Shown in pieces: positions 2,772 through 55,705 of a stretch of DNA of 64,000 bases. The notes under the pieces were generated by a model that was given only the letters and a program-made list of their open reading frames with translations, searched no databases and was not told where the DNA came from. Every line of letters begins with the position of its first letter. Positions within the stretch are counted from its first letter, which is position 1. The translations under genes were made by a program, and so were the position numbers. The stretch comes from Escherichia coli (lineage in GTDB: Bacteria; Pseudomonadota; Gammaproteobacteria; Enterobacterales; Enterobacteriaceae), in assembly GCF_030384885.1 (NCBI RefSeq), contig NZ_CP128613.1; one strand, written 5' to 3'.

Positions 2772-4849
<2,078 letters not shown>

Positions 4850-50126: not shown

Positions 50127-50684
50127 TTAATTTTTGTTATTCACTGTTTTCTTTTTGTCCTTCAAGTAATAAGTTTTCATGAAAGTTAAACGATCACCAT
50201 TAAACATATAGTCTGGATTAATAAAATAATAGTTCTGTATCATGGTCTCAGCAATAAATTTCTTGTCAGCAAGTTCTTTCATCCCTTTGAAATATGTCGT
50301 TCTTGATATTTTTACAATCTCTTGATCAACAATATCGAATGACATTAATATCGTATCTGTATCTTTATTGTCTCTAATAGCAAGATACAGTATCTTAAAT
50401 ACTTTCTTACCTGATGAGGATAAACCCTCAATAGCTGATACGCCATCCACATAAAGCTTCACGAACTGTGTCTTGTCTACTTCCATTGACTGAAAGAAAC
50501 CACCATGCCCAACCTGTTCTCCTGTATTTTCATTTACTACGGCTAAGCGGTCTTTTCCTGTTGTGATACGTCTGATACCTGTTTTTGTATGTATATTTGT
50601 ATCATTAAGGAATGGGTTTTTTACATGGCGAGGTAGACCTCTTCTTGATTTCTTTACTTCCGTTTGTATCTTATTTTCTATCAT
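50127..50684 (-). CDS. hypothetical protein (possible DNA-binding / replication-initiator-like)
   Basis: 185 aa ORF with strong RBS aaaggag; adjacent to AT-rich repeat-containing region. Confidence 0.55.
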   Translation of the reverse strand: MIENKIQTEVKKSRRGLPRHVKNPFLNDTNIHTKTGIRRITTGKDRLAVVNENTGEQVGHGGFFQSMEVDKTQFVKLYVDGVSAIEGLSSSGKKVFKILYLAIRDNKDTDTILMSFDIVDQEIVKISRTTYFKGMKELADKKFIAETMIQNYYFINPDYMFNGDRLTFMKTYYLKDKKKTVNNKN

Positions 50685-51095
50685 GGTACTTACTCCTTTA
50701 TTTTTTTAGTTATACATTTAAGTAAATACTATATTTTGCGTGCAAGTCAATACTTAAAGTTTATATTTTTTAAAATAACTAACACTTGATGTTTTTACGT
50801 ATAAAACTTGTAGTGCTACAGAATATATACAAATAACACTTTATTATTTTTATTTGAGAATAGTTATCAACTTAAGTACCGGGATTCGGGACTTTAACTC
50901 CCGAGAGTGCGTACTTTGTTTTAAGCTATAGCTGGCTTGAGAGCAGTTTTCTTCTTCATTATTCAAATAGCGAAGCTTTGGATGACATTTTAAAGAATAT
51001 AATATTGGAAATAGTTCTTCTTTTTAGTTGATTGGTGCCTTATCAAAATGGCACCAGTGGTGTTATCTGTGTTATTTTTCCTACTATGTTATTAC

Positions 51096-51145
51096 AGCGA
51101 AGTGATTGTTGTATACAATCACGAACCGCTGCTACTATCGGGACT
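51096..51145. repeat. dyad-symmetric repeat copy A (GTGATTGT-n5-ACAATCAC followed by GAAnnGCTGCTA)
   Basis: Seen directly; shares about 40 nt with copy B. Confidence 0.8.
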
Positions 51146-51232
51146 GCTTGATTAATTTTACTTTAACTTTATATGCGTCTACGACGCGATCTTTTTTGGA
51201 TAAATCCAATATTAACAGGGGCAAGCCCTGTT

Positions 51233-51280
51233 CAGCAGAGTGATTGTTCGCAACAATCACGAAGTGCTGCTATCAAGGAT
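51233..51280. repeat. dyad-symmetric repeat copy B (GTGATTGTT-CGC-AACAATCAC followed by GAAGTGCTGCTA)
   Basis: Seen directly; perfect 9-bp inverted arms. Confidence 0.8.
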
Positions 51281-51602
51281 ATAGTTTTCCTATACGTTTA
51301 AGAGCAAATGCTATATGTCTAAAGGGAAAAACTATGTTTAAACATAGGATCTAAATTCAGCATCATGAGGAAAAGAGATCAAACAATGATCGAGTACTTT
51401 TCTTTTTATTTAAAAAACAGGAGATGAATAAAATAAAAATATCAGCGTCAGGGCGTAGCCGTGCGTAAGCACAGAGATAAAGATCTTTTCAATAAGAAGT
51501 TTAATAATCAGTAGTGAAATCATAAATAAAATAAAAATATATTTGATTTTTACGCCTGCGATAGAGTATTAAACAGTAATAAAATAATAAAAGGAAAATA
51601 TA

Positions 51603-51872
51603 ATGAACAATACCAAAATGATCACTCTCTTCCATCCACATGACAAAACACCATTTATAATCTGTATTGTAAACAAAGTAGAAGATACAGACCACGGATT
51701 GAAATTAACCCTTGAAAACGGCAACAATATTTGTGTCAATAATTATAGTCATTATCTGTTATCAGAGTCTGTAAGTCGTTGCGATAAACACAGGTTAAAA
51801 AATATTTATATTCGCTTGGTTTCAGAACTCACGCAGATGAGTGAAAAAACTATAAATTCGCAAATGTTATAA
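51603..51872 (+). CDS. hypothetical small protein
   Basis: 89 aa ORF with RBS aaaagga; no recognisable domain. Confidence 0.45.
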   Translation: MNNTKMITLFHPHDKTPFIICIVNKVEDTDHGLKLTLENGNNICVNNYSHYLLSESVSRCDKHRLKNIYIRLVSELTQMSEKTINSQML

Positions 51873-51950
51873 AATATCTATAAAGACATAATAAATATTT
51901 TTGATATTATGATTAGTTGCATGGTATTAAATAAAAACAGGAAAAATATC

Positions 51951-52355
51951 ATGCTAAAAATAAAAACAAAGATCTATATACCTACAACTTTAACAGGAAA
52001 CATGGATAAACACTATATCCCTGTTTTAGAGGATTTAAGAAAAGCGATATACAGCGACAGAATGTTATCAAGGCTTGCAGATAGCGGCAATATTGTTATC
52101 CATAGTTCAGTTGGGTATCCGGTTGCTAAATACAAAAATACGGGTATTAGCATAGGTATAGAACCATTGAATCCAATGATAAGACAAAATCTGACTCTTG
52201 GATATATTATGGTTGTCAGAAACGGAAAAGCATCACAGGAGATTAATGGTTTACTTAACAGGTCATTGCCAAAAGCAATAAGCACTTTTAAGGATCACAT
52301 CAATGAATATGAAGCAGTAAAAAGTAAAATGCGACAACAAACTATGATCTGGTAA
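51951..52355 (+). CDS. hypothetical protein
   Basis: ORF 51909..52355, internal ATG 51951. Confidence 0.45.
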   Translation: MLKIKTKIYIPTTLTGNMDKHYIPVLEDLRKAIYSDRMLSRLADSGNIVIHSSVGYPVAKYKNTGISIGIEPLNPMIRQNLTLGYIMVVRNGKASQEINGLLNRSLPKAISTFKDHINEYEAVKSKMRQQTMIW

Positions 52356-52469
52356 AATATTTAGTCTGATAACTACAGGAGAAGGATGAGCAATGGAAGG
52401 TAAGTTAATTTTTGTTCCGATGCAATACTACGGTTTCAATCCAATTACGATGAAACCGCTGCCGTTCCA

Positions 52470-53432
52470 TTGCTATCCATCCAGAACGTCATAGCCAATA
52501 CCGATCCGTTCTTTCTTCTCCGGTTCTTCCACCATACCGTTCTGATTGAAGAAGGAACAACGCTGGCAAGTATCTTTCTGGCAATAGAACCATGGAAGGC
52601 TTTGTTAGCAGCTTATCTGGACAGAGATGTTGGTGCTTATATAGATGAGGTAAGAAAACCGTCCGGGCCAACGGCATGGGATATTGAATGGATCGGAATT
52701 GACCGTCGAAGTTCGGTTTATCGCGCTTACAAGCGTCAGGATATGGAAGAAGGGGAGGATTTTTCGACCTATTTTAATCGCGAGCGCTTCCCGACTGATG
52801 AGCTTGACATAGAAAGTAGCTGTGATGCTTCCGGCTTTATCAAAGGAGATAAAGAACGCTGGAGTATCAGCGGCGATATTCAACAAATTAAAAATCTTCC
52901 TGTAATCCTCTATAGCAAACAGACATTAATGACTTCACCGAAAGACGGTTTGCTGAAGAAAAACGTATCGGGTGTGAAGAGTTCCAAGCACAGTTGCTTT
53001 GTTTATGGCGATACCTCGTTTTCTTTTAGAGAGGTTATGGAAGCCATCTTCATTAGTAGGCTGTTCTTCTATGCACCAAAAGACGCAGCCAGCAGCCTTG
53101 ATGAGCTGAAAGCGAGTCTGGCTGAACTGGAAGAAGAACGTGCTGAAAGCACAAATACGGAGTCGATCGGCAATGAAACAGGTGAAGAACCTACCATCGT
53201 CGTAGCCGACGGTGCTTTTGATTCGCTCGCTGCTCACATGGAGTCTGAAAAGCGGAGTGGCAATCCATTAAGAAGTTGTGCCAGCAGGAAGGAGGGCTGC
53301 CCATACGTATTGGCAACATCAAAATGGCTGAGCCTCCAGCGTTATAGCTATTTTAAGAAAAGAAATGATGTAAATATGCATCTGGTTTTTCTTTATAATG
53401 TAAGGATGTCCGATGAAACATCAGCATCGTGA
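52470..53432 (+). CDS. hypothetical protein, possibly frameshifted at N-terminus
   Basis: 320 aa ORF with only a TTG start and no SD; a 33-codon ORF with strong RBS (aggagaagg) begins at about 52393 in the -1 frame and overlaps. Confidence 0.45.
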   Translation: MLSIQNVIANTDPFFLLRFFHHTVLIEEGTTLASIFLAIEPWKALLAAYLDRDVGAYIDEVRKPSGPTAWDIEWIGIDRRSSVYRAYKRQDMEEGEDFSTYFNRERFPTDELDIESSCDASGFIKGDKERWSISGDIQQIKNLPVILYSKQTLMTSPKDGLLKKNVSGVKSSKHSCFVYGDTSFSFREVMEAIFISRLFFYAPKDAASSLDELKASLAELEEERAESTNTESIGNETGEEPTIVVADGAFDSLAAHMESEKRSGNPLRSCASRKEGCPYVLATSKWLSLQRYSYFKKRNDVNMHLVFLYNVRMSDETSAS

Positions 53433-53640
53433 ATGTTATCTGGTTAATAATTTTCTTATGTAATATTATCTATGCCATCTGGCTATGTTTTCAATTGTTT
53501 TAGTTCTCGACAACTGTTTTTATATCCAGTATGATTTTACTCGTATCCGGCAGAATATTTTTAGATGCTGTTTCATGAACTCCGGTTGAAAGGTTTATTC
53601 TCTACTTTTGGGAATAATAGTTAAAATGGAGATAAGTGTA

Positions 53641-55077
53641 ATGACGTTTAGTAATGAAATTGAAGTTTTCATAAAAGATTTTGTTAAAGATCTTGAAAAT
53701 GATTGTGCTGCTATTTTTTCTGGCGCAGGAATGTCTAAAAGTCAAGGTTATGTTGATTGGAAAGAATTACTTAGCGATATAGCAGAAGAACTTAGTTTAG
53801 ACATTAATAAAGAAGACGATCTAATATCGCTTGCTCAATTTCATGTTAATGAAAAGAAAGGGGCTACAAAACTCACAAGGAAGATAATCGAAGAGTTTTC
53901 TGAGCAAGCCGAGCCATCAGAGGTTCATAATATAATTGCTCGTTTACCGATTAAGACATTTTGGACAACAAACTATGACACTTTAATTGAAGATAGTCTG
54001 CGGAAAGTTTACAAAATTGCAGATGTAAAAAGAAACATAGATGATTTAAATACAACACGACCTAAGCGAGACGCGATAGTATATAAAATGCATGGTGATA
54101 TTTCGTCCCCATCCAAGGCTATTTTATATAAAGAGCAGTATGAAAAATACTACAGAACACACGCTTCATTTATCACCGCACTTAGCGGAGATTTAATATC
54201 AAAAACCTTTCTATTCATAGGGTTTAGTTTTACCGACCCAAATCTGGATTACATTTTGAGTCGTTTGTATACTCATTCTGGGGACAAGAGGACACACTAT
54301 TGCTTTATGAAGAATGAGGCTAATAATTCCCTAGATGATGAAGAAACAGTAAATTATAAGATCAGAAAACAAAAACTGCGAATCGATGATCTCAAGAGAT
54401 TTGGTATACAAGTATTATTAATAGATGAATATTCTGACATCCCTAAAATTCTAGCTAAGATAGAGCAATCATTTAAAAAGAAAACGATATTTATTTCTGG
54501 TAGTGCAGAAAAATATGGGGATCTTGAAAGACCTAAAGCATTAGATTTTATTCACACATTAGCATATGAGATTATAAAGAATAATTATAGGATAGTGAAT
54601 GGATTTGGATGGGGCGTCGGAAGTTCTGTGATAAATGGTGCGTTGGATGCAATTTATAGTAGGCCAGATAAATTATCAGAAGAACAGCTCATTGTTAGAC
54701 CATTTCCACAAACTGTCAGTAAGGGGAAAGATATTCAAGAACTTTGGGAGGAGTATAGACAGAGAATGATTCCTCTTGGTGGTATTGCATTGTTTATTTT
54801 TGGAAATAAACAAGAGGAAAATAATGATATAGTTAATGCTAGGGGAGTATTTAGAGAGTTTGAGATTGCTGTTCAACATGGCCTTGTACCAATTCCTTTA
54901 CCCAATACCGGGTATATGTCTAAATATATATTTGAACAAATATCACAAGATCCTAAGAAATATTATGGAAGTAATGAATGGATATATAATGATTTGTCTG
55001 AGCTTACTGAAAAAGATTTTTCGGTAAAAAAAACAATAGAAGTTGTAATAAAAATCATAAACAAACTGAATAAATAA
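53641..55077 (+). CDS. thsA: Thoeris ThsA-like protein (N-terminal SIR2 NADase, C-terminal SLOG domain)
   Basis: ORF 53608..55077; SIR2 motifs FSGAGMS, TTNYD, HGD; C-terminal Rossmann-like FISGSAEKYG... SLOG region; length matches ThsA. Confidence 0.85.
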   Translation: MTFSNEIEVFIKDFVKDLENDCAAIFSGAGMSKSQGYVDWKELLSDIAEELSLDINKEDDLISLAQFHVNEKKGATKLTRKIIEEFSEQAEPSEVHNIIARLPIKTFWTTNYDTLIEDSLRKVYKIADVKRNIDDLNTTRPKRDAIVYKMHGDISSPSKAILYKEQYEKYYRTHASFITALSGDLISKTFLFIGFSFTDPNLDYILSRLYTHSGDKRTHYCFMKNEANNSLDDEETVNYKIRKQKLRIDDLKRFGIQVLLIDEYSDIPKILAKIEQSFKKKTIFISGSAEKYGDLERPKALDFIHTLAYEIIKNNYRIVNGFGWGVGSSVINGALDAIYSRPDKLSEEQLIVRPFPQTVSKGKDIQELWEEYRQRMIPLGGIALFIFGNKQEENNDIVNARGVFREFEIAVQHGLVPIPLPNTGYMSKYIFEQISQDPKKYYGSNEWIYNDLSELTEKDFSVKKTIEVVIKIINKLNK

Positions 55078-55093
55078 TATATTAGGTGAAGTT

Positions 55094-55705
55094 ATGGCTC
55101 ATGAAACATTCATATCATATAAATATAGTGAAGCACAGGATTTAAGAGACAAAATTGTCAAGGCATTAGGAGATGACGCTGTTTACTATAAAGGGGAGAC
55201 ATCGGAGTCTCCTGATATAAGTAATACAACAGTAGATAATATAAAGAACAATCTTAAAAATATGATTTTCGGGACATCTGTTTTAATTGTTATTATTTCC
55301 CCGAATATGATTAAAAGTAAATGGATTGACTGGGAAATTGAATATGCATTGAAAGAATACAAGAGAGGAGGAACCACTTCCCGAACTAATGGCATTGTTG
55401 GTGTGATAATGAAGGTTAATAATAGCTATGACTGGTTAGTATCTTCTTCAATCAAGCCTGATGGATGTTCATCAAGAACTATTGATACAACTAAACTATA
55501 TGACATTATTAATAATAATAGGTTTAATTTAACTTCAGAAGATAAATATTGTTGCCCTGAGTGCAAATCATATGATCAATTGACTGGTTCTTATATTTCA
55601 TTGATAGAAGAAGACCGATTTTTAGCAGATGTATCTTCATACATTGAAAATGCCTATGAGAAATCTAAAAAATTAAGTTCCTACGATTTATATAAACAAA
55701 AATAG
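55094..55705 (+). CDS. thsB: Thoeris ThsB-like TIR-domain protein
   Basis: 203 aa, N-terminal FISYKYSEAQ and SKWIDWEIEYAL typical of bacterial TIR domains; 16 bp downstream of thsA. Confidence 0.8.
   Translation: MAHETFISYKYSEAQDLRDKIVKALGDDAVYYKGETSESPDISNTTVDNIKNNLKNMIFGTSVLIVIISPNMIKSKWIDWEIEYALKEYKRGGTTSRTNGIVGVIMKVNNSYDWLVSSSIKPDGCSSRTIDTTKLYDIINNNRFNLTSEDKYCCPECKSYDQLTGSYISLIEEDRFLADVSSYIENAYEKSKKLSSYDLYKQK

What the first reader, a model, noticed from the sequence alone, without database searches (positions are those of the whole stretch)
50127..51600. AT-rich segment with paired dyad-symmetric direct repeats next to a possible Rep-like gene
Upstream of the 50127..50684 gene lies about 900 bp of very AT-rich DNA containing two copies, about 140 bp apart, of a roughly 40-bp element. 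Each copy has a palindrome (GTGATTGT…ACAATCAC with 8–9 bp arms) followed by the conserved GAAnnGCTGCTA. The layout resembles iteron or operator arrays of plasmid replication or partition origins, suggesting a vestigial replicon, but the elements could also be operators or small RNA genes.
Basis: partly seen in the sequence, partly recalled or inferred. Interest (0 to 1): 0.5.

Follow-up and report, generated by a model that had tools for sequence, protein, structure and literature searches.

The report
Conserved hairpin pair in mobilizable island
The two repeats are real: they are copies of an undescribed, highly conserved hairpin element carried by a family of mobilizable genomic islands in about 14% of complete E. 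coli genomes and many other enterobacteria, and they most likely act as folded single-stranded-DNA signals on the transferred strand rather than as binding sites for the neighbouring Rep-like protein.

Summary
Two 40-nt copies (51095-51134 and 51233-51272, 138 nt apart) each hold GTGATTGT-N5-ACAATCAC followed by NAANNGCTGCT. None are expected by chance.

The window's island is an EARL (ROD21-like) excisable, mobilizable island. Its 185-aa "RepL" is the SEN1990 homolog.

The element occurs in 753-778 of 5426 complete E. coli genomes and in 29 other Enterobacterales species. It was not found in phage records, and its few plasmid-collection hits are EARL-type islands or chromosome-sized records.

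Across 64 distinct copies:
- the 8-bp arms are almost invariant;
- the centre varies freely;
- a CTG always lies 6 nt after the arm;
- every copy is on the strand that carries the MOBQ-type oriT nick region next to mobQ.

Some islands carry an extra copy about 500 nt downstream of oriT. The Rep-like neighbours fall into two very divergent families, each with its own 21-23-bp iteron arrays, while the hairpins stay constant. So A and B are not the iterons.

Best reading (about 0.35): strand-specific single-strand initiation or sso-like signals, resembling phage G4/alpha3 complementary-strand origins, set beside a Rep-plus-iteron module.

Rivals are a double-stranded operator, a structured RNA, and a secondary relaxase site. 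Nothing has been tested experimentally.

The parts
50127..50684 (-). RepL-like (SEN1990-type) winged-helix gene, 185 aa
   Evidence: ORF. Weak Pfam RepL hit, E 3.2e-5. PGAP names homologs RepL. 49% identical to the Rep candidate of small circular MobV plasmids.
50777..50850 (.). Two 20-nt direct repeats (AACTAACACTT.../AAATAACACTT...), a weak candidate for this Rep family's own binding sites. They occupy the spacer position where other islands carry clear 21-23-bp iteron arrays.
   Evidence: The iteron arrays are in L003, L004 and L005. The assignment in the window is an inference.
51034..51079 (+). Hairpin GGTGCC...GGCACC followed by a T-rich run; terminator-like on the + strand
   Evidence: Conserved in several islands.
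51095..51134 (+). Hairpin element A. Outer stem CAGCG/CGCTG; inner stem GTGATTGT/ACAATCAC (51102-51109 / 51115-51122); CTG at 51129-51131.
51175..51197 (+). Small GC hairpin GCGTC-TAC-GACGC followed by T6; terminator-like. One stem pair covaries (G-C in 14 sequences, T-A in 7).
51197..51208 (.). Palindrome TGGATAAATCCA. The minus strand reads TTATCCAAA, an 8/9 match to the DnaA box. Invariant in the 22-sequence alignment but degenerate in the single-copy clade.
51215..51231 (+). GC hairpin ACAGGG-GCAAG-CCCTGT directly 5' of element B. It travels with B in dispersed copies and shows a few compensatory changes.
51233..51272 (+). Hairpin element B, the core type kept in single-copy islands. Outer stem CAGCA/TGCTG; inner stem 51240-51247 / 51253-51260; CTG at 51267-51269.
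51278..51351 (+). Conserved block GATATAGTTTTCCTATACGTTTAAGAGCAAATGCTATATG, then palindrome CTATGTTTAAACATAG plus GATC
   Evidence: Absent from the minimal modules in L020, L016 and L037.
51443..51475 (+). Conserved block with two DNA mini-hairpin motifs, GCGTAGC (51453) and GCGTAAGC (51463). Other islands add a third, GCGTTAGC.
   Evidence: Motif definition, and its presence at the G4 and alpha3/St-1 primase origins, are from PMC13037366.
51603..51872 (+). orf89, a conserved small gene of unknown function to the right of the element in many islands
   Evidence: No Pfam, NCBIfam or PHROG match.
60488..60518 (+). Candidate canonical oriT. Inverted repeat ACACTGC-GTA-GCAGTGT followed by ATAGGTGGGCATTG, lying between mobQ (minus strand) and traD (plus strand).
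   Evidence: the repeat covaries and the core is invariant. Same layout as pTiC58 and IncQ oriT. The nick itself was not mapped.
58888..60369 (-). MOBQ relaxase gene
   Evidence: NCBIfam MobQ, E 2.5e-74, above the curated cut-off.

Best explanation
Elements A and B are strand-specific DNA hairpin signals. They sit on the strand of an EARL (ROD21-like) mobilizable island that is nicked at oriT and transferred.

When that strand is single-stranded, several structures fold and stay free of SSB: each hairpin (8-bp inner stem, asymmetric internal loop, short outer stem), the GC hairpin in front of B, and the downstream mini-hairpin block. That single-stranded state arises after conjugative entry, or during replication driven by the neighbouring Rep-like protein.

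The folded structures then direct synthesis of a primer that starts at or near the invariant CTG, 6 nt 3' of the stem. The complementary strand is made from that primer. In function this is a single-strand initiation signal (ssi) or single-strand origin (sso), built like the primase-dependent complementary-strand origins of phages G4 and alpha3.

The variable 21-23-bp repeat arrays between the Rep-like gene and element A are the likelier Rep binding sites. The whole intergenic region would then be a Rep-iteron module joined to a conserved, host-read priming module.

What is shown: the anatomy, the conservation, the strand consistency, and the dispersal of copies to oriT-proximal positions. What is inferred: which strand is transferred, that the DNA acts in single-stranded form, and the priming itself.
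For: 1. All 64 distinct copies share an almost invariant 8-bp stem, a free centre (5 nt in 62 copies, 6 nt in 2) and a CTG exactly 6 nt after the stem. The flanks are asymmetric, with about 2 nt against 4 nt between the inner and outer stems.

2. Every copy lies on one strand, tandem duplicates of the B module included.

3. That strand carries the oriT-like site: an inverted repeat followed by TATA(A/G)GTGGGCATTG, between mobQ and traD. This is the layout of the pTiC58 and IncQ oriT, whose sequences I recalled and then confirmed at 100% identity with the same gene arrangement. The relaxase domain hits MobQ and TraA_Ti.

4. Orientation relative to mobQ/oriT holds even where the Rep-like gene is on the other side and the other strand (L020, L033, L005).

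5. Minimal units (GC hairpin plus B hairpin plus CTGCT) occur elsewhere in the same orientation. One is about 500 nt 3' of oriT in L037, one is upstream of cargo and traD in L016, and a decayed copy in L036 still keeps the CTG.

6. The L037 copy has a compensatory stem change, GTGATTGC/GCAATCAC. Neighbouring hairpins show compensatory pairs, for example G-C 14 versus T-A 7.

7. The conserved downstream block consists of GCGNAGC/GCGNNAGC DNA mini-hairpin motifs, which are strand-specific. The review PMC13037366 places GCGAAAGC (G4) and GCGTTAGC (alpha3, St-1) at the primase start hairpin. The phage records show hairpin I followed by CTA-CTG (G4) and CTC-CTGCTA (alpha3).

8. The island's + strand has 7 such motifs against 2 on the minus strand, with about 2.5 expected per strand. 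Five of the 7 lie in the two conserved non-coding regions.

9. The hairpins stay invariant while the adjacent Rep-like proteins diverge into two families, each with its own iterons. That fits recognition by a conserved host factor.

10. The region is hairpin-rich: z = -5.0 when folded as ssDNA.
Against: - No experiment bears on it.
- Covariation inside A and B is almost nil, because the stems are invariant rather than covarying (covariation term -0.14). That pattern would equally fit sequence-specific protein binding to duplex DNA.
- At the fifth outer pair, uncompensated A-C cases (6) outnumber G-T cases (3).
- G4 and alpha3 hairpin I stems differ from each other, so DnaG alone would not explain an invariant stem sequence.
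- The CTG lies inside the predicted outer stem.
- The resemblance to G4-type origins is architectural, with no sequence homology beyond CTGC(T)A.
- The copies' common orientation also matches the direction of the rightward operons, so it does not point uniquely to the transferred strand.
- The nick strand is inferred by analogy, not mapped.
- Folding z-scores are similar for both strands.
Confidence: 0.35

Rival explanations
1. Double-stranded protein-binding sites. The 21-bp palindromes would be operators or origin sites for a dimeric DNA-binding protein, such as the RepL-like winged-helix protein, another conserved island protein, or a host factor. Bound protein would regulate the divergent repL-DUF4756-hns and orf89 operons, or form part of a duplex replication origin.
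For: - The half-sites are nearly invariant and the centre is uncontacted and variable, which is the classic operator pattern.
- There are 2-3 copies in an intergenic region between divergent gene sets.
- A winged-helix gene is always adjacent (PMC10655114).
- A DnaA-box-like palindrome and several GATC sites lie nearby.
- The extra copies lie upstream of the cargo/traD operon, which could mean co-regulation.
Against: - The adjacent Rep-like proteins are too divergent (two families, 15% identity in the hhalign match) to share one invariant site. They also have their own family-specific iteron arrays.
- The flanks are conserved but asymmetric.
- The centre length varies between 5 and 6 nt.
- All copies keep one orientation, which a symmetric site does not require.
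- The sites lie more than 200 bp from the only promoter-like matches.
- The DnaA-like box is lost in the single-copy clade.
- No candidate regulator was identified.
Confidence: 0.27
2. A structured RNA. The conserved block would be transcribed from the + strand as one or two small RNAs, or as a long leader of the orf89 operon. A and B would then be RNA hairpins, and the hairpin-plus-T-run sites would be intrinsic terminators.
For: - There are two terminator-like sites on the + strand, against 0.5 expected. One shows a compensatory pair.
- Some loops are of GNRA type (GCAA, GTAA).
- Folded as + strand RNA, z = -5.2.
- As a precedent, another mobilizable island (SGI1) needs a self-encoded small RNA for mobilization (PMC9299015, abstract seen).
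Against: - No Rfam family matches at E <= 1.
- No conserved promoter precedes A, B or the dispersed units. The one promoter-like match on the + strand sits in the variable loop of A.
- Many loops are GNNA or GNA types, typical of DNA mini-hairpins rather than GNRA.
- The overall RNAalifold covariation term is negligible.
- The T-run is degenerate in many islands.
Confidence: 0.15
3. Secondary sites for the island's MOBQ relaxase. Each would be a hairpin followed by (T/G)AAGTGC, mimicking an oriT nick region, and would serve as alternative initiation, termination or recombination sites.
For: - In many islands B reads hairpin plus TAAGTGCTGCT.
- The IncQ oriT reads hairpin plus TAAGTGCGCCCT.
- The island's own oriT reads hairpin plus ATA(A/G)GTGGGC.
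- All of these lie on the same strand.
Against: - Beyond TAAGTG the cores differ: CTGCT against GGCATTG. Copy A reads GAACCGC or GAAGCGC.
- A functional nick site in direct repeat with oriT would abort transfer or delete DNA, whether 500 nt away (L037) or 9 kb away (window).
- The oriT inverted repeat covaries freely with the same conserved relaxase, whereas the A and B stems are invariant.
Confidence: 0.08

Closest known systems
Primase-dependent complementary-strand origins of phages G4, alpha3, St-1 (G4-type single-strand initiation signals)
   Same: - Both are strand-specific clusters of hairpins on a DNA strand that enters the cell single-stranded.
- Both have a stable hairpin followed within a few nucleotides by CTG(C): G4 has CTA-CTG-C, alpha3 has CTC-CTGCTA, and here it is NAANNG-CTG-CT.
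- GCGNAGC/GCGNNAGC mini-hairpin motifs are present, and GCGTTAGC is shared with alpha3 and St-1.
Sources.
   Different: - There is no sequence homology in the stems.
- The CTG is 6 nt from the stem rather than 2-3 nt, and lies inside a predicted outer stem.
- The mini-hairpin motifs lie 35-180 nt away, not in the hairpin next to the CTG.
- The stems are invariant here.
- The element has 1-3 copies.
- Priming has not been tested.
Single-strand origins (sso) of rolling-circle plasmids and ssiA/ssiB of RSF1010
   Same: Both are orientation-specific, hairpin-rich non-coding regions next to a rep gene. They are needed to convert the displaced or transferred strand to duplex DNA, and in mobilizable plasmids they sit on the transferred strand (established knowledge). 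The Rep-like family here also occurs on small MobV plasmids that have a hairpin-rich region upstream of rep.
   Different: - None of the ssoA signatures (RSB, CS-6) was recognised by eye, and there is no similarity to the ssiA sequence as I recall it.
- No island-encoded primase was seen.
- The host element is a chromosomal island, and its replication has not been detected (PMC10655114).
Iterons and operators of iteron-type plasmid origins
   Same: These are direct repeats next to a Rep-like gene in AT-rich DNA. Related islands do carry true 21-23-bp iteron-like arrays in this intergenic region.
   Different: - A and B are 138 nt or more apart and are not phased at 21-23 bp.
- They do not co-vary with the Rep family.
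- They are internally palindromic with asymmetric flanks.
- Copies also occur far from any rep gene.
MOBQ oriT (RSF1010/R1162, pTiC58)
   Same: Both show a hairpin directly followed by (T)AAGTGC on the nicked strand.
   Different: The rest of the nick core differs. The island also has a better, separately conserved oriT next to mobQ.

Membership tests
EARL (Enterobacteriaceae-associated ROD21-like) excisable/mobilizable genomic islands | Conserved gene set: MobA/MobL (MOBQ) relaxase plus TraD homolog, type IV pilin genes, H-NS homolog, tRNA-adjacent integration, AlpA-type RDF (PMC6035254) | tested here: met
   MobQ E 2.5e-74. traD (frameshifted), pilS- and pilV-like ORFs. H-NS ORF. tRNA-Ser at the left end. 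Syntenic E. coli islands are annotated accordingly. The integrase lies outside the window.
RepL family (Pfam PF05732), for the adjacent protein | Significant match to the RepL profile | tested here: inconclusive
   One domain, E 3.2e-5, 23.9 bits, covering model positions 11-125 of 164. No NCBIfam model hit. PMC10655114 reports under 19% identity to firmicute RepL proteins.
RepL family (Pfam PF05732), for the adjacent protein | Acts as a replication or maintenance protein | not testable with these tools
   Indirect support: 49% identity to the only Rep candidate of circular 3.5-kb MobV plasmids. Against: deleting SEN1990 did not change ROD21 copy number or the excised fraction (PMC10655114).
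Iteron array of a plasmid origin (for elements A and B) | Tandem direct repeats of about 17-23 bp, phased at about 21-23 bp, and specific to the cognate Rep | tested here: not met
   A and B are 137-164 nt apart, sometimes about 300-500 nt. They stay invariant across two Rep-like families. Separate arrays with 21-23-bp spacing do co-vary with the Rep family.
G4-type single-strand initiation signal | Strand-specific hairpin(s) with a 5'-CTG-3' primer start just 3' of a hairpin | tested here: met
   The CTG is 6 nt after the inner stem in 64 of 64 distinct copies, all on one strand. G4 and alpha3 were read for comparison.
G4-type single-strand initiation signal | Located on a strand that exists single-stranded in vivo | tested here: inconclusive
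   The copies share a strand with the oriT-like inverted repeat plus nick core, whose gene layout matches pTiC58 and IncQ. The nick itself is not mapped.
G4-type single-strand initiation signal | SSB- and DnaG-dependent site-specific primer synthesis, orientation-dependent | not testable with these tools
   Needs an in vitro priming assay or an M13 minus-origin-deleted rescue assay.
Known RNA families (Rfam 15) | Covariance-model match | tested here: not met
   No match at E <= 1 in 49000-53000 on either strand.
MOBQ oriT nick site (for elements A and B) | Inverted repeat followed by the family nick core (..AGTGCGCCCT, or this island's GTGGGCATTG) | tested here: not met
   Only (T/G)AAGTG is shared. 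The remainder is CTGCT against GGCATTG at the island's own oriT and CGCCCT in IncQ.

The most novel reading that the evidence does not exclude
The roughly 60-nt two-hairpin unit (GC hairpin plus the GTGATTGT hairpin with its internal loop and GCTGCT tail) is a new, island-specific single-strand element. It would be read sequence-specifically by a dedicated protein, either island-encoded or host.

One possibility is a hairpin promoter or loading site on the incoming transferred strand. It could switch on the leftward repL-DUF4756-hns operon, for which that strand is the template, and so establish or silence the island in a new host. A new structured regulatory RNA of EARL islands is the other possibility.
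Probability: 0.15. Interest if true: 0.7.

Novelty: new variant of a known kind. Interest (0 to 1): 0.5.

Why it matters
EARL islands (ROD21 of S. Enteritidis, ICEKp258.2 of K. pneumoniae ST258, and islands of EPEC) carry virulence and defence cargo and move between enterobacteria; related copies of this non-coding region were found here in the CFT073, Nissle 1917 and O127:H6 records. Their cis-acting DNA has not been described: neither oriT nor this region is described in the literature I could search.

This analysis identifies two things. The first is a likely oriT next to mobQ. The second is a more unusual conserved hairpin module, present in about 14% of complete E. coli genomes.

If the module is the priming or establishment signal of the transferred strand, it becomes a handle for measuring or blocking island establishment in recipients. 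It would also explain why a Rep-like gene persists in islands that do not detectably replicate in donors.

Tried and rejected
- **Rfam scan** of 49-53 kb on both strands at E <= 1: nothing.
- **Phage collection:** no match.
- **Plasmid collection:** only EARL-type islands, some in chromosome-sized records filed as plasmids and one integrated in a large Klebsiella plasmid, plus chance 25-nt Staphylococcus hits.
- **Promoter search:** I looked by eye, and with the pattern scan, for conserved sigma-70 promoters on both strands around A, B and the 45-nt block. No conserved -10/-35 pair turned up. The minus-strand candidate TTGCTC-N18-TATAT(T/C) loses its last T in the window.
- **Long Frpo-like hairpin promoter:** the ssDNA fold gives only local hairpins.
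- **DnaA box as a universal feature:** rejected, because the TGGATAAATCCA palindrome is degenerate in the single-copy clade.
- **Covariation in A and B:** essentially none, since the stems are invariant, so covariation cannot prove folding.
- **Known operator consensus sequences**, compared from memory (CRP, Fur, LexA, matS, Ter, dif, 434): none fits.
- **orf89, orf148, orf320:** no family in Pfam, NCBIfam or PHROGs.
- **Literature searches** for ROD21/EARL with oriT or sRNA found no description of this region. PMC10655114 only remarks on a long non-coding region upstream of SEN1990 homologs.
- **Not run:** structure prediction of the Rep-like protein, because published models already exist, and the metagenome scan.
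Full report
**1. The observation**

A 185-codon gene lies at 50127-50684 on the minus strand. Next comes a 918-bp non-coding stretch with GC of 0.27-0.38. It contains two 40-nt copies:
- Copy A is CAGCGAAGTGATTGTTGTATACAATCACGAACCGCTGCTA at 51095-51134.
- Copy B is CAGCAGAGTGATTGTTCGCAACAATCACGAAGTGCTGCTA at 51233-51272.

The copies are 80% identical and 138 nt apart. The composite pattern matches nowhere else in the window, and no shuffle produced a match. Each copy also has a 5-bp outer stem in the same register: CAGCG/CGCTG in A and CAGCA/TGCTG in B.

**2. Where the window comes from**

The region matches chromosomes of 687-778 of 5426 complete E. coli genomes, including CFT073, Nissle 1917 and an O127:H6 strain, and no E. 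coli plasmids.

In the best-annotated relative the island starts at a tRNA-Ser next to mtfA and the yersiniabactin island. Its gene order is: AlpA-type HTH, H-NS paralogs, DUF4756, "RepL", the non-coding region, small unknown genes, cargo, MobQ relaxase, TraD, type IV pilin and PilV.

This gene set defines the EARL (Enterobacteriaceae-associated ROD21-like) excisable, mobilizable islands (PMC6035254). The "RepL" is the homolog of SEN1990 of ROD21. That protein has been modelled as a winged-helix protein, and its deletion changed neither ROD21 copy number nor the excised fraction. The same paper notes, without analysing it, that these genes have a long non-coding region upstream (PMC10655114).

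In the window the island begins after tRNA-Ser at 43794-43883.

**3. Conservation of the element**

An exact-pattern scan of one genome per species found the element in 29 species of Enterobacterales. These include Pluralibacter, Pectobacterium, Brenneria, Serratia, Dickeya, Citrobacter, Yersinia, Salmonella arizonae, Klebsiella, Kluyvera and Erwinia. It was not found in phage records. Its few plasmid-collection hits are EARL-type islands or chromosome-sized records.

Alignments of divergent islands show a conserved non-coding block of about 400 nt. In order it contains:
- a terminator-like hairpin;
- element A;
- a small GC hairpin followed by a T-run;
- the palindrome TGGATAAATCCA;
- a GC hairpin (ACAGGG...CCCTGT);
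- element B;
- a 45-nt invariant block;
- a CTATG...CATAG palindrome followed by GATC;
- an AT-rich spacer;
- a block reading GGGCGTAGCCGTGCG(N2)AGCAC, followed in many islands by ATGAGCGTTAGCTCAT.

Across 64 distinct copies of the A/B element:
- the 8-bp arms are almost invariant;
- the centre is free in sequence, 5 nt long in 62 copies and 6 nt in 2;
- a CTG lies exactly 6 nt after the arm in all 64;
- the fifth outer pair is G-C in 19, A-T in 30, G-T in 3 and A-C in 6.

Islands with a single copy keep the B type together with its preceding GC hairpin. Several islands have tandem duplications of the whole B module.

**4. What the element is not**

It is not the iteron set of the adjacent protein.
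- The genes that flank the element fall into two families that phmmer does not connect. A profile comparison aligns them only weakly, over the winged-helix region (E 0.01, 15% identity).
- Members of one family can sit on either side and on either strand.
- Each island type has its own array in the spacer between the gene and element A. L003 has 4 copies of CTATGTTCGAACATAG at 22-23-bp spacing. L004 has repeats of GTTTCCACAGAAGAAACTT at 21-bp spacing. L005 has AGTTATAG/AACTATAA repeats.
- These arrays co-vary with the protein family. A and B do not.

It is not a known RNA family. I found no promoter conserved in front of A, B or the dispersed units.

It is probably not a relaxase site, although B often reads hairpin plus TAAGTGC, as the IncQ oriT does.
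- The island has a better oriT candidate.
- The sequence beyond TAAGTG differs.
- A second nick site in direct repeat with oriT would be harmful.

**5. The oriT and the transferred strand**

Between mobQ (58888-60369, minus strand) and traD lies a highly conserved segment. It has an inverted repeat, ACACTGC-GTA-GCAGTGT (60488-60504), followed by ATAGGTGGGCATTG. In Pectobacterium and Yersinia islands the repeat reads ACGCTCAC-GAA-GTGAGTGT, which is compensated, and the following core TATAAGTGGGCATTG is unchanged.

I recalled the IncQ oriT (CCAGTTTCTCGAAGAGAAACCGG-TAAGTGCGCCCTCCC) and the Ti-type oriT (GGCGTCGCGTCAGCGACG-TATAATTGCGCCCTTG). Both are present at 100% identity in IncQ plasmids and in pTiC58. 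Written in that orientation, the relaxase gene lies to the left on the opposite strand and the accessory genes (mobC; traC-traD) lie to the right on the same strand. The window has the same layout.

From established knowledge of RSF1010, the nick lies 3' of the repeat on the strand as written. On that basis the + strand of the window would be the transferred strand. This step is an inference. All copies of the hairpin element lie on this strand.

**6. Dispersed copies**

- In E. coli strain 74-2 (L037), an IS3-associated deletion has removed the region next to the Rep-like gene. A complete unit (ACAGGGC-CTT-GCCCTGT, then CAGCA-AT-GTGATTGC-TTGCG-GCAATCAC-TAAG-TGCTG-CT) sits about 500 nt 3' of oriT in the same orientation. 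Its innermost stem pair has changed on both sides, from T-A to C-G.
- A Klebsiella island has a decayed copy between oriT and traD that still keeps the CTG at the same distance.
- A Pectobacterium island has a unit upstream of cargo and traD.

The mobile unit is therefore the two-hairpin segment of about 62 nt. Its orientation relative to oriT is kept even when its neighbours change.

**7. Pointers to a single-stranded DNA function**

- The downstream conserved block consists of GCGTAGC and GCG(N2)AGC motifs, plus GCGTTAGC in many islands.
- According to the review PMC13037366, GCGNAGC and GCGNNAGC are the "mini-hairpin" DNA motifs. They form unusually stable structures with a sheared G-A pair and bind SSB poorly.
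- The same review reports these motifs at the site where primase starts on phage G4 (GCGAAAGC) and on St-1 and alpha3 (GCGTTAGC).
- The phage records show hairpin I followed by CTA-CTG-C in G4, with the primer annotated at 3970-3997, and by CTC-CTGCTA in alpha3.
- Elements A and B have the same logic: a stable hairpin, then NAANNG, then CTG-CT(A).
- The motif is strand-specific. The island has 7 on the + strand and 2 on the minus strand, with about 2.5 expected per strand. Five of the 7 lie in the two conserved non-coding regions, one of them at the tip of the oriT repeat.
- The small hairpins next to B show compensatory changes: G-C in 14 sequences against T-A in 7 at one pair, and single cases at others.
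- The region folds far better than shuffles (z about -5), but it does so on either strand.

**8. The Rep-like protein**

The Pfam RepL match is weak (E 3.2e-5). However, a database search found many homologs at 45-55% identity on contigs of 1-5 kb.

Two such contigs are 3688 nt long with a 141-nt terminal overlap, which makes them 3547-bp circles. They encode a MobV relaxase, two tiny ORFs and this protein: 49% identity, E 1e-61. The protein is thus the only evident replication candidate on these circles. Their region upstream of rep is also hairpin-rich.

So the family very likely includes true plasmid initiators. The island module (Rep-like gene plus family-specific iterons) therefore looks like a replicon, or a former one.

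**9. Most likely mechanism**

I propose (confidence about 0.35) that A and B are single-strand initiation signals, together with the GC hairpin and the mini-hairpin block. On the transferred + strand they fold, remain free of SSB, and direct primer synthesis at or near the invariant CTG. Synthesis then proceeds leftward over the DNA that has already entered, and around the re-circularised island. The same signals would serve any Rep-driven replication that exposes this strand.

Which enzyme reads them is not known. It could be DnaG alone, a PriA-type primosome or RNA polymerase.

Recognition by a conserved host factor would explain why the element stays constant while the Rep-like proteins and their iterons diverge. 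It does not explain why the stem sequence itself is invariant, which is the main weakness of the model.

The strongest rival (about 0.27) is a double-stranded operator or origin site for an unidentified conserved protein. A structured RNA (about 0.15) and a secondary relaxase site (about 0.08) follow.

**10. Novelty and verdict**

I found no description of this element in the searchable literature, nor any in Rfam.
- If it is an ssi/sso, it is a new variant of a known kind of signal, in a new setting: a chromosomal mobilizable island.
- If it is read by a dedicated protein, or acts as a hairpin promoter for the repL-DUF4756-hns operon (for which the transferred strand is the template), it would be more novel.

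The finding is real, widespread and uncharacterised. Its function remains inferred.

Noticed in passing
window 60488-60518 (+): Likely oriT of the island: an inverted repeat with compensatory variation between genera, followed by the invariant TATA(A/G)GTGGGCATTG. It lies between mobQ and traD in the same layout as the pTiC58 and IncQ oriT. The searchable EARL literature does not describe it.
   Followed up: yes
window 61013-61318 (+): traD is frameshifted in this window. Its 42 N-terminal codons end at a TAA (61139), and the conserved C-terminal part continues in another frame from 61141. The gene is intact in the E. coli relative L001. This is either a pseudogene or a sequencing error.
   Followed up: partly
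window 49998-50045: Six tandem copies of the 8-mer TTAGCTCT, in the intergenic region between the DUF4756 gene and the 3' end of the repL-like gene. This could be a slippage-prone tract.
   Followed up: no
window 46832-48682, 53608-55077, 55094-55705: Defence-type cargo surrounds the element. To the left is an ORF that looks like a NACHT-type NTPase (by eye; a syntenic E. coli island has a gene annotated that way). To the right is a SIR2-like protein (N-terminal match to NCBIfam Dsr2, E 3.9e-19), followed by a 203-aa protein that looks TIR-like by eye. That pair could be Thoeris-like. In relatives, DotA/TraY and restriction genes occupy this position.
   Followed up: partly
L051/L052 (metagenome contigs, 3688 nt with 141-nt terminal overlap): Circular MobV plasmids of 3547 bp, 59% GC. 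Their only Rep candidate is 49% identical to the island's RepL-like protein, and the region upstream of rep is full of GC hairpins.
   Followed up: partly
L003 3766-3854; L004 3831-3912; L005 3705-3818: Iteron-like arrays with 21-23-bp spacing between the Rep-like gene and hairpin A. They differ with each Rep-like subfamily. The L003 palindrome CTATGTTCGAACATAG recurs as a single conserved copy downstream of element B in many islands (window 51332-51347).
   Followed up: partly
window 50970-50976 (+): GCGAAGC, the canonical extra-stable DNA mini-hairpin heptamer. It lies in the spacer between the repL-like gene and element A, on the same strand as the other motifs.
   Followed up: no
window 60396-60430 (+): A conserved segment directly upstream of the mobQ start: ATGCTGCTGTTAG followed by the 8-bp-stem hairpin AGTTTTTC-GTAA-GAAAAACT. 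It shares the octamer ATGCTGCT with the 3' flank of some A copies. Its meaning is unknown.
   Followed up: no
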